From the IMG/VR virus record IMGVR_UViG_2778261236_000010: 7,305 nucleotides of DNA. One strand, 5' to 3'. The position numbers were made by a program. Below, in pieces: positions 1 to 3,000 of the stretch (position 1 is the first letter of the stretch; every line of letters starts with the position of its first letter). Origin of the DNA: a virus. Its lineage: Duplodnaviria; Heunggongvirae; Uroviricota; Caudoviricetes.

Positions 1-3000
1 CTATCCTTCTGAGCCAGCACCTCTCCACCGAAAGTCAGTGCTGGCTGTTTTTTTCCTTAATAAAGCATCTGTAACTGGTTGTTGTTCTGCGGGTTCTGTT
101 CTTCGTTGACATGAGGTTGCCCCGTATTCAGTGTCGCTGATTTGTATTGTCTGAAGTTGTTTTTACGTTAAGTTGATGCAGATCAATTAATACGATACCT
201 GCGTCATAATTAATTATTTGACGTGGTTTGATGGCGTAGATGCACGTTGTGACATGTAGATGATAATTATTATCATTTTGCGGGTCCTTTCCGGCGATCC
301 GACAGGTTACGGGGCGGCGACCTCGCGGGTTTTCGCTATTTATGAAAATTTTCCGGGATCCATGTCCGGTTTCTCTTCAAGTTAACTATATGAAAAATAT
401 AAAAACAGGTCTTCTGTGAACCGGACATGAACAAAAAACAGACATGTAAACCGGACATGACCGGTTTTGTTGTGATTGTGAGGTGAGAGTTTTTGCGAGG
501 TGAGGAGTGGCTACGCAGACTGAAGTTGCCAGGCATTTAAGTCTGACCGATCGCCAGCTTCGCAGATTGCAGAAATTGCCGGGTGCCCCGATATCGAATA
601 AGCGAGGGCAACTGGATCTGGATGCCTGGCGCGATTTTTACATATCGTATCTGAGGAGAAGTAAAAACGATGTGCCTGATGGCGATAGCGAAGACGACTA
701 TGAGGAGAAATTGCTTATTGCCAGATGGGAACTGACAGCAGAACAGGCTGTTACACAGCAGTTAAAAAATGAGGTGTCAAAAGGAAAACTGATTGACACC
801 GGGTTCTGTATTTTTGCCCTCAGTAAGCTGGCAATGGCGTTATCCAGTACGCTTGATTCCATCCCTTTATCCATGCAGCGACAGTTTCCTGATTTAACAC
901 CGCGCCATCTTGACCATCTGAAAACCCTTATTGCTAAGGGGGCAAATCAGTGTGCGCGGGCAGGGGATAAATTACCGGATTTACTTGATGAATATATCAG
1001 AGCAACAACTGAATAATATGATGAGCGCTGTCACAACTGCATTACAGCCCCTGATAAGGGCATTGCCGGTGACGCCAGTTGAATGGGCTGATCAAAATTA
1101 TTATCTGCCTAAAGAATCTTCATATGGTGAGGGCGAATGGAAAACGCTGCCATTCCAGATCGCCATCATGAACAGTATGGGGAATGATCAGATCCGCACT
1201 GTTAATCTGATTAAATCTGCCCGTGTTGGCTATACAAAGATGTTGCTGGGGGGGGGGCGGGTATTTTATTGAGCATAAATCCCGAAACAGTCTGCTTTTT
1301 CAGCCCACGGATTCTGCCGCTGAAGATTTTATGAAGTCTCACGTGGAGGCGACGATTCGGAACGTGCCATGCCTGAAAGACCTTTCCCCATGGCTGGGTC
1401 GTAAACATCGTGACAATACTCTCACGCTGAAACGCTTTTCATCGGGCGTCGGTTTCTGGTGCCTGGGCGGCGCTGCCGCCAAAAACTACCGTGAAAAATC
1501 CGTTGACGTGGTCTGCTATGACGAACTTTCCTCGTTCGAGCCGGATGTCGAAAAAGAGGGCTCGCCAACCCTGCTGGGGGATAAGCGTATTGAGGGGTCG
1601 GTGTGGCCAAAATCCATTCGCGGCTCGACGCCTAAAATCAAAGGCACCTGCCAGATCGAAAAAGCCGCTAACGAGTCGGCGCATTTTATGCGTTTTTATG
1701 TGCCCTGCCCGCACTGTGGGGAGGCGCAGTATCTGAAATTTGGCGATGAGTCCACGCCTTTTGGGCTTAAATGGGAGAAGGACAGCCCTGAAAGTGTTTT
1801 CTACCTCTGTGAACATCATGGCTGCGTGATCCATCAGTCTGAACTGGACCAGAGCAACGGGCGGTGGATCTGTGAAAACACGGGCATGTGGACCCGTGAC
1901 GGTCTGACGTTTTTCAGCGCCCGGGGTGATGAAATTCCGCCGCCGCGCTCCATCATGTTCCATATCTGGACGGCGTACAGTCCGTTCACCACCTGGGTAC
2001 AGATTGTCTATGACTGGCTGGATGCACTGAAAGATCCCAACGGCCTGAAAACCTTTGTGAACACCACGCTGGGCGAGACCTGGGAAGAGGCCGTGGGCGA
2101 AAAACTCGATCACCAGGTACTGATGGATAAGGTGGTGCGTTACACGGCGGCGGTGCCTGCCCGGGTGGTTTATCTGACGGCGGGCATTGACTCGCAGCGA
2201 AACCGTTTTGAGATGTATGTCTGGGGATGGGCTCCGGGAGAGGAAGCCTTTCTGGTGGATAAAATCATCATTATGGGGCGTCCTGATGAGGAAGAGACGC
2301 TGTTACGTGTGGATGCGGCGATCAACAAAAAATACCGCCATGCGGATGGCACCGAAATGACTATTTCCCGTGTCTGCTGGGACACCGGGGGGATCGATGG
2401 TGAAATTGTTTATCAGAGATCAAAAAAACACGGTGTTTTCCGGGTGCTGCCGGTAAAAGGCGCATCTGTCTATGGCAAGCCGGTGATCACCATGCCAAAA
2501 ACCCGCAATCAGCGGGGCGTGTATCTGTGTGAAGTGGGAACGGACACCGCAAAAGAAATTCTCTATGCCCGTATGAAAGCCGATCCCTCGCCTGCGGATG
2601 AAGCCACGTCGTATGCCATCCGTTTTCCTGATGATCCGGAGATTTTTTCGCAGACAGAGGCGCAGCAACTGGTGGCGGAAGAGCTGGTGGAGAAGTGGGA
2701 AAAAGGAAAGATGCGTCTGCTGTGGGATAACAAAAAGCGGCGTAACGAAGCGCTGGACTGCCTGGTGTATGCCTACGCGGCATTACGTGTGTCCGTGCAA
2801 CGCTGGCAGCTTGATCTGGCTGTACTGGCAAAATCCCGGGAAGAAGAGACGACCCGGCCAACCCTGAAAGAACTGGCAGCGAAGCTGTCCGGAGGAGTGA
2901 ATGGTTACAGTCGCTGAACTGCAGGCGCTGCGTCAGGCGCGCCTTGATTTATTAACCGGTAAACGGGTGGTGTCTGTCCAGAAAGATGGTCGCAGAATTG

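What the first reader, a model, noticed from the sequence alone, without database searches (positions are those of the whole stretch)
261..1016. Mosaic packaging-specificity module: lambda-type cosQ/cosN next to non-lambda cosB repeats and a small terminase with a divergent DNA-binding domain
Sequence up to about 357 (including the cohesive end at 312-323) matches lambda closely, and the C-terminal half of the small terminase is Nu1-like. The cosB-equivalent region instead carries three copies of AAACCGGACATG, and the N-terminal about 80 aa of the small subunit (the HTH that reads cosB in lambda) is unrelated to Nu1. This is the pattern expected for a packaging-specificity swap, as known for the lambda / phage 21 pair, where cosN is shared but cosB and the small-subunit N-terminus differ. 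The repeats are the predicted binding sites of this HTH.
Basis: partly seen in the sequence, partly recalled or inferred. Interest (0 to 1): 0.55.

Follow-up and report, generated by a model that had tools for sequence, protein, structure and literature searches.

The report
Lambda-type cos with swapped packaging-specificity cassette
This is the DNA-packaging start site of a lambda-like E. coli O157:H7 prophage. The cutting site is lambda's own, but the adjacent recognition repeats and the DNA-reading head of the small terminase come from a different, widespread lineage, so it is an ordinary but clean case of a known kind of module swap.

Summary
Window 77-356 is 96-99.6% identical to lambda-type phages (cosQ 282-288, cohesive end 312-323, I2) and similarity stops at 356/357, which is lambda bp 45/46.

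From 361 the motif AAACCGGACATG occurs five times within 107 bp, on both strands. About 0.6 matches are expected in the whole window. The layout follows lambda's R3-I1-R2-R1 order:
- R3: 361-372, at lambda's R3 position
- IHF-like site: 383-395
- inverted R2: 418-429
- R1 copies: 448-467

Across relatives the TCCGGTT/AACCGGA cores and their 54-bp spacing are invariant. The base two positions before CCGG tracks residue 20 of the recognition helix: Arg or Lys with G, Asn, Asp and other non-basic residues with T. The block 357-~720 behaves as an exchangeable cassette.

The repeat core resembles phage 21's R sites (TTCATGTC). This copy sits in a defective prophage.

Binding itself is inferred.

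The parts
282..288 (+). cosQ heptamer GGGTCCT, 30-24 bp upstream of the top-strand nick
   Evidence: Read directly from the sequence. Invariant or nearly so in 15 diverse relatives and in distant relatives. PMC4669245 describes the role and conservation of cosQ.
312..323 (+). cosN cohesive-end sequence GGGCGGCGACCT, identical to lambda and phage 21
   Evidence: Window 312 corresponds to lambda bp 1.
329..356 (+). I2-type A/T-rich segment (lambda bp 18-45). It is the last stretch identical to lambda; the mosaic junction is at 356/357.
   Evidence: PMC4856287 defines I2 as roughly bp 18-50.
361..372 (-). R3-equivalent site CATGTCCGGTTT (lambda coordinates bp 50-61)
   Evidence: The position equals the annotated R3 (50-65) of lambda and phage 21 (PMC9026076). 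The TCCGGTT core is invariant in 30 of 30 distinct relatives.
383..395 (-). I1-equivalent IHF-like site TAACTATATGAAA, with 2 mismatches to YAANNNNTTGATW
   Evidence: It sits at the same offset (18 nt after the R3 core) in 28 of 30 relatives, and four of them (L023, L024, L028, L030) match the consensus perfectly. Phage 21 I1 is annotated at bp 74-86.
418..429 (+). R2-equivalent site GAACCGGACATG, inverted relative to R3
   Evidence: The AACCGGA core starts exactly 54 bp after the R3 core in 30 of 30 relatives.
435..446 (+). Degenerate copy AAAACAGACATG (10 of 12 matches)
   Evidence: It is not conserved outside the close E. coli group.
448..467 (.). R1 region: two overlapping copies, AAACCGGACATG (448-459, plus strand) and CATGACCGGTTT (456-467, in R3 orientation), which together form a palindrome
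   Evidence: Present in the long-cosB relatives only. The consensus scan also flags it as a weak terminator-like hairpin.
497..506 (+). Shine-Dalgarno region GAGGTGAGGA of terS
   Evidence: Read directly from the sequence. GAGGTGA is conserved in the group-1 relatives.
507..668 (+). TerS residues 1-54: winged helix-turn-helix DNA-binding domain. Helix 1 spans residues 4-10, the recognition helix 15-22, the wing 23-37 and helix 3 38-54.
357..720 (+). The exchangeable specificity cassette: cosB plus about the first 72 codons of terS
   Evidence: Against the Klebsiella relative L023, identity is 80-93% for 271-360, 47-73% for 361-720 and 83-100% for 721-1020. N-domain and C-half identities are discordant across relatives.
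723..1016 (+). TerS residues 73-169: Nu1-like oligomerisation and TerL-binding half
   Evidence: BLASTP gives 46% identity to lambda Nu1 and 40% to phage 21 gp1. Pfam PF07471 scores 67.9 bits.
988..2917 (+). terL (gpA homologue). It overlaps the terS end as in lambda and is broken here by a +1 frameshift in a G10 run at 1248-1257.
   Evidence: 65-66% identity to lambda gpA in both pieces. The same allele occurs in many O157:H7 genomes.

Best explanation
Window 282-1016 is the packaging-initiation region of a lambda-like cos prophage. Terminase nicks cosN (312-323), which together with cosQ and I2 is lambda's own sequence.

The DNA is chosen for packaging by the next 110 bp, a complex cosB built like lambda's. 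It holds an R3 site at bp 50-61 from the nick, an IHF-type bend site, an inverted R2 site 54 bp further on, and R1 copies. [quoted passage not shown] The Nu1-like C-terminal half holds TerL over cosN.

cosB and the DNA-binding domain form one co-adapted cassette (about 357-720). This cassette has been exchanged by recombination between conserved flanks: the cos core on the left and the central TerS helix on the right. The result is a packaging specificity different from lambda's.

Shown here: the anatomy, the fold, the conservation, the co-variation and the mosaic boundaries. Inferred: physical binding, IHF use, and that lambda and 21 terminases do not recognise this cosB.
For: - The repeats are non-random: 5 hits in 107 bp against 0.6 expected in 7.3 kb.
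- R3, I1 and R2 fall at bp 50-61, 72-84 and 107-118. The annotated phage 21 sites are at 50-65, 74-86 and 107-122. The outer span of the R3-R2 inverted pair is 69 bp here, 68 bp in lambda and 67 bp in 21.
- In 15 diverse enterobacterial relatives, cosQ, the cosN flanks, I2, R3, the IHF core and R2 are conserved islands in otherwise diverged DNA. The R3-R2 core spacing is 54 bp in 30 of 30 distinct sequences.
- Co-variation: loci with recognition helix LT[DE]RQLRRLQK have ATGTCCGG / CCGGACAT in both R3 and R2. Loci with R[DN]LQK have A[TC]TTCCGG / CCGGAA[AG]T.
- The distant relative L011, with Lys20, has GGCCGGGGCCGG where relatives with Asn, Asp, Ser, Thr or His have TTCCGGTTCCGG.
- The same trend holds outside the family: lambda and phi80 have Asn21 with GTTTCC, and 21 has Arg21 with GTGTCG.
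- The N-domain fold matches RppC, lambda TerS and MerR-type winged helices best among 48,164 chains.
- The C-half is Nu1-like and the downstream TerL is 66% identical to gpA.
- The cassette has sharp boundaries and discordant N/C identities.
- The same cassette, 96% identical, is present in the deposited complete genomes of phages PhiR12_1 to 5, listed with hosts K-12 and C.
Against: - No binding or packaging experiment exists for this protein and site. Purified lambda TerS itself binds R sites weakly and rather non-specifically in vitro (PMC9026076, PMC6739421), so a sequence argument is all that is available.
- The IHF-like site in this copy has two mismatches to the consensus.
- The helix/site co-variation rests on few independent lineages: two clades of enterobacterial relatives plus one distant locus.
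- By sequence alignment the R3 hexamer sits 3 bp closer to cosN than in lambda and 21, and in lambda a 3-bp change of that spacing is harmful (PMC9026076).
- The Feiss genetics link bp 56 to residue 24 rather than to the residue equivalent to 21. The contact proposed here is therefore not the published one.
- This particular copy lies in a defective prophage with a frameshifted terL and a truncated capsid gene. It may act only as a substrate for terminase supplied in trans.
Confidence: 0.8

Rival explanations
1. The repeats are not terminase sites. Instead they are bound by another protein (a phage or host regulator), or they act at RNA level. Under the RNA reading, the 448-467 palindrome and the 353-369 hairpin would be attenuators or terminators in front of terS.
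For: The consensus scan flags 448-467 and 353-369 as terminator-like stem-loops followed by T-rich tails. CCGG-centred palindromes are common operator shapes.
Against: Two terminator-like hits are no more than the shuffles give (mean 1.1, sd 1.2). The conserved pair R3/R2 lies 54 bp apart around an IHF-like site and cannot form a local hairpin. The 448-467 palindrome is absent from most relatives, whereas R3 and R2 are universal. The sites sit at the annotated positions of the lambda/21 R sites and co-vary with the TerS helix. No Rfam family matches.
Confidence: 0.07
2. There was no cassette exchange. cosB and the DNA-binding domain simply diverged faster than their surroundings by ordinary mutation under diversifying selection.
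For: Identity to lambda falls in steps: TerL 66%, TerS C-half 46%, N-domain about 16%. This could reflect graded constraint. The whole cosB architecture is homologous to that of lambda and 21.
Against: Identity to lambda drops from above 90% to background within a few bases at 356/357. N-domain and C-half similarities are discordant among relatives: P0100 is 67/94%, P0089 is 94/84% and P0087 is 75/59%. The same DNA-binding domain is joined to non-Nu1 C-terminal halves in other phages. The same cosB/domain pair is joined to several different cosN sequences.
Confidence: 0.1
3. This copy is a non-functional relic: the site and the gene are decaying in a dead prophage and do nothing.
For: terL carries a +1 frameshift in a G10 run. 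The major capsid gene is truncated.
Against: Window 340-1016 is 100% identical across many independent O157:H7 genomes. It is 96% identical to the deposited PhiR12 phage genomes over 261-1100. terS is intact and all R sites match the family consensus. O157 prophages with broken terminase genes have been shown to be packaged by a sibling prophage with an identical cos (PMC2669165). O157 genomes carry 2-5 copies of this module.
Confidence: 0.25

Closest known systems
Phage lambda cos and gpNu1 (cosQ-cosN-I2-cosB with R3-I1-R2-R1; TerS with an N-terminal winged HTH)
   Different: The R-site sequence is TCATGTCCGGTT rather than CGTTTCCTTTCT. The N-domain has no BLAST or HMMER similarity (about 16% identity) and a shorter wing. 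The R3 hexamer lies 3 bp nearer to cosN. There are extra overlapping R1 copies.
Phage 21 cosB and gp1, the classical specificity partner of lambda
   Same: The logic is the same: a shared cosQ/cosN with a different cosB plus TerS N-terminus, exchangeable as a left-end cassette. The R-site core shares the 8-mer TTCATGTC with 21's R2 and R1 (chance about 0.002 per comparison). The recognition helix has Arg, Arg and Gln at the positions of 21's R17, R21 and Q23.
   Different: 21 gp1 is 53% identical to Nu1 along its whole length. This protein aligns to gp1 only from residue 64. The sites differ after TGTC (CGGTT here, GG[ATG][CA]C in 21). Cross-recognition is untested.
[quoted passage not shown]
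   Same: The Salmonella relative L028 has the cohesive end GGGCGGCAGCGT, which differs from lambda at positions 8, 9 and 11, as published for Gifsy-1 (PMC4669245). It encodes a TerS 68% identical to this one, with the same R3-IHF-R2 layout.
   Different: Those relatives use CATTTCCGGTTC sites with Asn or Asp at helix position 20, and a shorter cosB without the R1 copies. Identity of L028 with Gifsy-1 itself is inferred from that single published description. No Gifsy-1 record was in the collections searched.
N15 / Monarch cos (simple versus complex cosB within one specificity)
   Same: Within this TerS family both architectures also occur. Enterobacterial members have the complex R3-I1-R2 form. 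Pseudomonas, Azospirillum and other members have a single TTCCGGTTCCGG site just upstream of terS, which resembles N15's simple cosB.
   Different: The N15 R3 site and recognition helix are unrelated in sequence to those here.
PICI cos sites with Rpp (EcCICFT073)
   Different: This is a full TerS with a Nu1-like TerL-binding half, followed by terL, portal and head genes. It is not a short Rpp that borrows the helper's TerS. PICI cosB lacks repeated R sites (PMC9026076), whereas this one has them.

Membership tests
Lambda-like cos site | The 7-bp cosQ GGGTCCT about 30 bp upstream of the nick | tested here: met
   GGGTCCT is at 282-288. It is conserved in relatives.
Lambda-like cos site | A 12-base 5' cohesive-end sequence similar to lambda's, with conserved flanks | tested here: met
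   GGGCGGCGACCT at 312-323 is identical to lambda and 21. Actual cleavage is not testable here.
Lambda-like cos site | Complex cosB: R3 near bp 50-65, an inverted R2, an R1, all of one sequence type | tested here: met
   Copies lie at bp 50-61, 107-118, 137-148 and 145-156. Phage 21 is annotated at 50-65, 107-122 and 150-166.
Lambda-like cos site | An IHF site (I1) between R3 and R2 | tested here: inconclusive
   TAACTATATGAAA at 383-395 has 2 mismatches to the consensus. Relatives carry perfect or 1-mismatch sites at the same offset.
Lambda-like cos site | Terminase nicks here and virion DNA ends here | not testable with these tools
   This needs virion DNA ends or in vitro cleavage.
Phage_Nu1 (PF07471) small terminase | Pfam model matched above the gathering score | tested here: met
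   67.9 bits against a cut-off of 30, but only residues 49-150 match profile positions 62-163.
Phage_Nu1 (PF07471) small terminase | An N-terminal Nu1-type DNA-binding domain recognisable by sequence | tested here: not met
   There is no BLASTP alignment for residues 1-72. There are no PDB hits by phmmer or hmmsearch. Only hhalign gives a signal: probability 72%, 16% identity.
Phage_Nu1 (PF07471) small terminase | [quoted passage not shown] | tested here: met
Phage_Nu1 (PF07471) small terminase | A C-terminal TerL-binding half, and a terS-terL gene pair with overlapping ends | tested here: met
   Residues 73-164 are 46% identical to Nu1 residues 86-177. terL starts at 988, inside terS, and is 65-66% identical to gpA.
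Phage 21 packaging specificity | A gp1-type recognition domain | tested here: not met
   BLASTP to 21 gp1 aligns only residues 64-166.
Phage 21 packaging specificity | R sites of the 21 type (TCATGTCGG) | tested here: inconclusive
   The 8-mer TTCATGTC is shared with 21's R2 and R1, but the rest differs. Functional cross-recognition is unknown.
PICI cos/Rpp hijacking module | A short Rpp without a TerL-binding tail, no repeated R sites, and no terminase or head genes of its own | tested here: not met
   The region has a full-length TerS with a Nu1-like C-half, repeated sites, and terL-portal-protease-decoration genes downstream.

The most novel reading that the evidence does not exclude
Natural variation in this TerS family exposes a simple recognition rule. 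This rule may also apply to lambda and 21. The residue at helix position 20 (position 21 in lambda numbering) would read the base pair two positions 5' of the CC(G)G core. Arg or Lys would go with G (this window, phage 21, locus L011). Asn, Asp, Ser or Thr would go with T (Gifsy-type relatives, Pseudomonas relatives, lambda, phi80).

If true, this cosB is a natural third allele. It is G, as in 21, at the first discriminating base pair, and C, as in lambda, at the second. The cassette 357-720 would then be a ready-made orthogonal packaging specificity. It would insulate the O157 prophage pool from lambda-type terminases, while letting its defective members be packaged by siblings.
Probability: 0.3. 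Interest if true: 0.5.

Novelty: new member of a known kind. Interest (0 to 1): 0.35.

Why it matters
Packaging specificity decides which DNA in a cell ends up in virions. E. coli O157:H7 carries several copies of this cassette among its many lambdoid prophages, some of them defective, and cross-packaging between such prophages has been shown to move virulence genes (PMC2669165). Knowing that these prophages use a cosB/TerS specificity distinct from lambda's predicts which prophages can mobilise which.

The family also offers a wide natural series of matched protein/site pairs, from Enterobacteria to Pseudomonas and Alphaproteobacteria. That series could help map TerS-DNA contacts, which in vitro work on lambda has found hard to pin down. 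It does not reveal a new mechanism.

Tried and rejected
- The protein search with the 80-aa N-domain alone returned almost only truncated near-identical E. coli fragments. The same happened for the Nu1 N-domain, so the Nu1 profile used is shallow.
- The genome-contig scan chose a pattern starting with Met. It therefore missed all GTG-start enterobacterial relatives. These were recovered through the look-up of encoding contigs instead.
- phmmer and hmmsearch against PDB sequences found no terminase, Rpp or MerR chain. NCBIfam found nothing.
- K-12 DLP12 nohD and Qin nohA were fetched as possible 21-type references. Both turned out to be lambda-type. Phage 21 itself was then found.
- N15 was compared and is uninformative: its helix and site are different.
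- Rfam found no RNA family.
- A literature search for the PhiR12 phages found nothing relevant.
- The PICI reading was considered and rejected: this is a full TerS with head genes downstream.
- The minus-strand ORF 336-536 was considered as a gene and rejected: relatives have indels in it that are not multiples of three.
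Full report
**Where the window comes from.** Window 340-1016 is 100% identical to chromosomes of many E. coli O157:H7 strains. In one of them the surrounding annotation reads as follows. First come lysis genes, then 'terminase small subunit' and a frameshifted large terminase. These are followed by a head-tail joining gene and a portal gene annotated as frameshifted in that strain, although the window's own portal ORF 3104-4696 is uninterrupted. 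After these come an S49 protease, a decoration protein, a truncated major capsid gene and tail genes. The window is therefore the head-gene end of a lambdoid, partly defective prophage. Among deposited phage genomes, only PhiR12_1 to PhiR12_5 share the region 261-1100 (96.3% identity). Their records list K-12 and C hosts.

**Check of the observation.** Megablast to lambda and many lambda-like phages covers window 77-356 at 96.4-99.6% and stops at 356. GGGCGGCGACCT lies at 312-323, so window 312 is lambda bp 1 and the break falls at lambda bp 45/46. A sliding comparison gives 100% identity to lambda for 81-200, 88-98% for 201-360 and background (about 55%) after 360. PhiR12_1 shows the opposite pattern, with background identity before about 280 and at least 90% afterwards. 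Of 5426 complete E. coli genomes, 4594 match the cos core 261-356. In every core-only match listed (the spread sample), the match ends at 356. Some 1141 genomes carry the whole 261-1100 stretch.

**The repeats.** AAACCGGACATG occurs at 361-372 (minus strand, exact), 418-429 (plus, 11 of 12), 435-446 (plus, 10 of 12), 448-459 (plus, exact) and 456-467 (minus, 11 of 12). Only one other hit with up to two mismatches exists in the 7.3-kb window. The expected number is 0.6, and none of 200 shuffles reached six.

**The small terminase.** The ORF 507-1016 has a GTG start behind GAGGTGAGGA. It aligns to lambda Nu1 only over residues 73-164 (46% identity). Pfam Phage_Nu1 matches residues 49-150 only.

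**Anatomy of cosB.** In lambda coordinates the copies lie at bp 50-61, 107-118, 124-135, 137-148 and 145-156. The phage 21 genome record annotates R3 at 50-65, I1 at 74-86, R2 at 107-122 (opposite orientation) and R1 at 150-166. PMC9026076 gives the same plan for lambda. The first copy here sits exactly where R3 sits. The second is inverted and sits where R2 sits. The last (456-467) has the R3 orientation, as R1 does in lambda, although it lies a few bp nearer to cosN (bp 145-156 against 150-166).

Between R3 and R2, at 383-395, is TAACTATATGAAA. This is a two-mismatch match to the IHF consensus, at the place of I1. The outer span of the R3/R2 inverted pair is 69 bp here, 68 bp in lambda and 67 bp in phage 21. 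terS starts at bp 196 here and at bp 191 in lambda.

**Comparative evidence from near relatives.** TerS relatives 60-94% identical were located in E. coli, Klebsiella, Citrobacter, Enterobacter and Salmonella contigs and in IMG/VR contigs. An alignment of 15 diverse cos regions shows conserved islands at cosQ, the cosN flanks, I2, R3, the IHF core, R2 and the ribosome-binding site. The DNA between these islands has diverged and carries indels only downstream of R2. In 30 of 30 distinct sequences the R2 core AACCGGA starts exactly 54 bp after the R3 core TCCGGTT. In 28 of the 30, the best IHF-like match sits at the same offset, and it matches the consensus perfectly in four.

**Co-variation between the sites and the protein.** R3 and R2 change together, and they change with the protein.
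- Loci whose recognition helix reads LT[DE]RQLRRLQK have [CGA]ATGTCCGGTT and AACCGGACAT. This group holds the window, PhiR12, two Citrobacter-type loci, a Salmonella locus and an Enterobacter locus.
- Loci with R[DN]LQK have CA[TC]TTCCGGTT and AACCGGAA[AG]T. This group holds Klebsiella, E. coli and five Salmonella-type loci.
- The wing residue 36 also differs between the two groups, and the groups are clades. This is support, not proof.

**Distant relatives.** Relatives with the same N-domain occur in Pseudomonas, Azomonas, Azospirillum, Rhodospirillaceae, Alteromonadaceae and Enterobacter mori. They carry cosQ-like GGGTCCT, an I2-like TATGA..TTTTT stretch and a single TTCCGGTTCCGG site just upstream of terS. 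The one locus with Lys at helix position 20 has GGCCGGGGCCGG instead. Loci with a different helix (for example QQAVSAL or VKRVSEL) lack the motif.

**The DNA-binding domain.** A full HMMER search of 1.84 billion representative proteins with residues 1-80 finds only 47 clusters at E up to 0.001. Nearly all of the full-length hits are 150-190 aa proteins beginning MATQxEVAxHL. Some of them have Nu1-like C-halves and others have unrelated C-halves. The domain has therefore been shuffled between small-terminase scaffolds.

**The cassette.** Against the Klebsiella relative, nucleotide identity is 80-93% for 271-360, 47-73% for 361-720 and 83-100% for 721-1020. Protein identities of the N-domain and C-half to the window are discordant:
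- P0100: 67% and 94%
- P0089: 94% and 84%
- P0087: 75% and 59%

The same cosB/domain pair is linked to several different cosN sequences: lambda's here, GGGCGGCGTCCG in Citrobacter, and a quite different one in L029. The unit cosB plus about 72 codons has therefore moved by recombination between the conserved cos core and the conserved central part of terS. This is the same unit used to build lambda-21 and lambda-N15 hybrids (PMC4669245). The rest of the head module is a diverged lambda-like lineage (TerL 65-66% identical to gpA). The window is thus best described as a lambda-identical right end plus cos core, joined at 356/357 to a different lambda-like head module. That module starts with its own cosB.

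**Relation to phage 21.** The protein is not 21-like, because BLASTP aligns only residues 64-166. The sites, however, are similar. 21's R2 and R1 read TTTCATGTCGG[AG]CC, and this window's R2 reads GTTCATGTCCGGTTC. They share the 8-mer TTCATGTC. The chance of that for a random 16-mer is about 0.002 per comparison.

In the hhalign register, the recognition helix has Arg16, Arg20 and Gln22 where 21 has Arg17, Arg21 and Gln23. Lambda and phi80 have Asn21 and GTTTCC sites. The Gifsy-type relatives have Asn or Asp at position 20 and ATTTCC sites. This suggests a rule in which a basic residue pairs with G and an amide, acid or small polar residue pairs with T. It is an inference only. It also differs from the published assignment of bp 56 to residue 24 (PMC4669245). 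Moreover, the hexamer here lies 3 bp closer to cosN than in lambda and 21.

**What is known already.** The Feiss laboratory lists lambda, 434, phi80, 21, N15, Monarch and Gifsy-1 as lambda-like cos phages. [quoted passage not shown] Salmonella relative L028 has exactly the cohesive-end differences published for Gifsy-1 (positions 8, 9 and 11), so this TerS family very probably includes Gifsy-1. For O157 Sakai, the identical cos and Nu1 of Sp4 and Sp14 were noted, and trans-packaging of Sp4 was observed (PMC2669165). I found no description of the CATGTCCGGTT sites, of this DNA-binding-domain family, or of its co-variation in the papers searched. This is a further specificity type within a well-understood system, not a new mechanism.

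**Rivals.** An RNA hairpin or terminator, or an unrelated operator, is unlikely for three reasons: the conserved R3/R2 geometry, the positions of the sites, and their co-variation with TerS. Gradual divergence without exchange is contradicted by the sharp boundaries and the discordant identities. This copy may be inactive as an autonomous unit. terL has a +1 frameshift in a G10 run at 1248-1257, an allele found in many O157:H7 genomes, and the capsid gene is truncated. Even so, cos and terS are intact, and the site could be used in trans.

**Verdict.** The packaging-specificity-swap interpretation is supported. Binding and specificity remain inferred.

Noticed in passing
window 1248-1257 (inside terL, 988-2917): A run of 10 G puts terL out of frame. 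One O157:H7 genome has 9 G (in frame) at the same place, and phage PhiR12_1 has GGGAGTCGCC instead. The 10-G allele is 100% identical in many independent O157:H7 complete genomes, so it is not a one-off sequencing error. It could be a slippage-prone tract.
   Followed up: partly
window 6633-6899 and onward: The major capsid gene stops after 88 codons. In the matching O157:H7 genome it is annotated as a C-terminally truncated capsid gene running directly into a tail gene. The prophage has therefore lost most of the capsid gene and the head-completion genes.
   Followed up: partly
window 476-487 and 493-504: There is a direct repeat, TTGTGAGGTGAG / TTGCGAGGTGAG, just upstream of the terS start. 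It duplicates the Shine-Dalgarno-like GAGGTGAG.
   Followed up: no
window 4686-6191 (gpC-like S49 peptidase): The C-terminal part of the protein contains three tandem repeats of about 45 residues. Each has the pattern ...EA.GREQLA..LA....M.VE.AR.ILAA... This makes the protein about 60 residues longer than lambda gpC.
   Followed up: no
loci L006-L013, L017, L018 (about 160 nt upstream of terS in each): Phage-like loci in Pseudomonas, Azomonas, Azospirillum, Rhodospirillaceae, Alteromonadaceae and Enterobacter mori carry a lambda-like cosQ (GGGTCCT), an I2-like TATGA..TTTTT stretch and one TTCCGGTTCCGG site directly in front of a TerS with the same N-domain. This looks like a widespread 'simple cosB' version of the same system, well outside the enterobacteria.
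   Followed up: partly
window 261-356: The 96-bp cos core (cosQ to I2) alone matches 4594 of 5426 complete E. coli genomes. In every core-only match listed, the match ends at window 356. The core acts as a shared homology patch between prophages with different cosB types.
   Followed up: yes
window 336-536, minus strand: A 66-codon ORF overlaps cosB. A shorter version is annotated as a hypothetical protein in PhiR12_1. Relatives have indels there that are not multiples of three, so it is probably not a gene.
   Followed up: partly
locus L155 (phage 21) bp 122-128: Phage 21 has an extra GTGTCCG between its annotated R2 and R1. This is the same TGTCCG core as the sites in this window, and it is not annotated as a site.
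   Followed up: no
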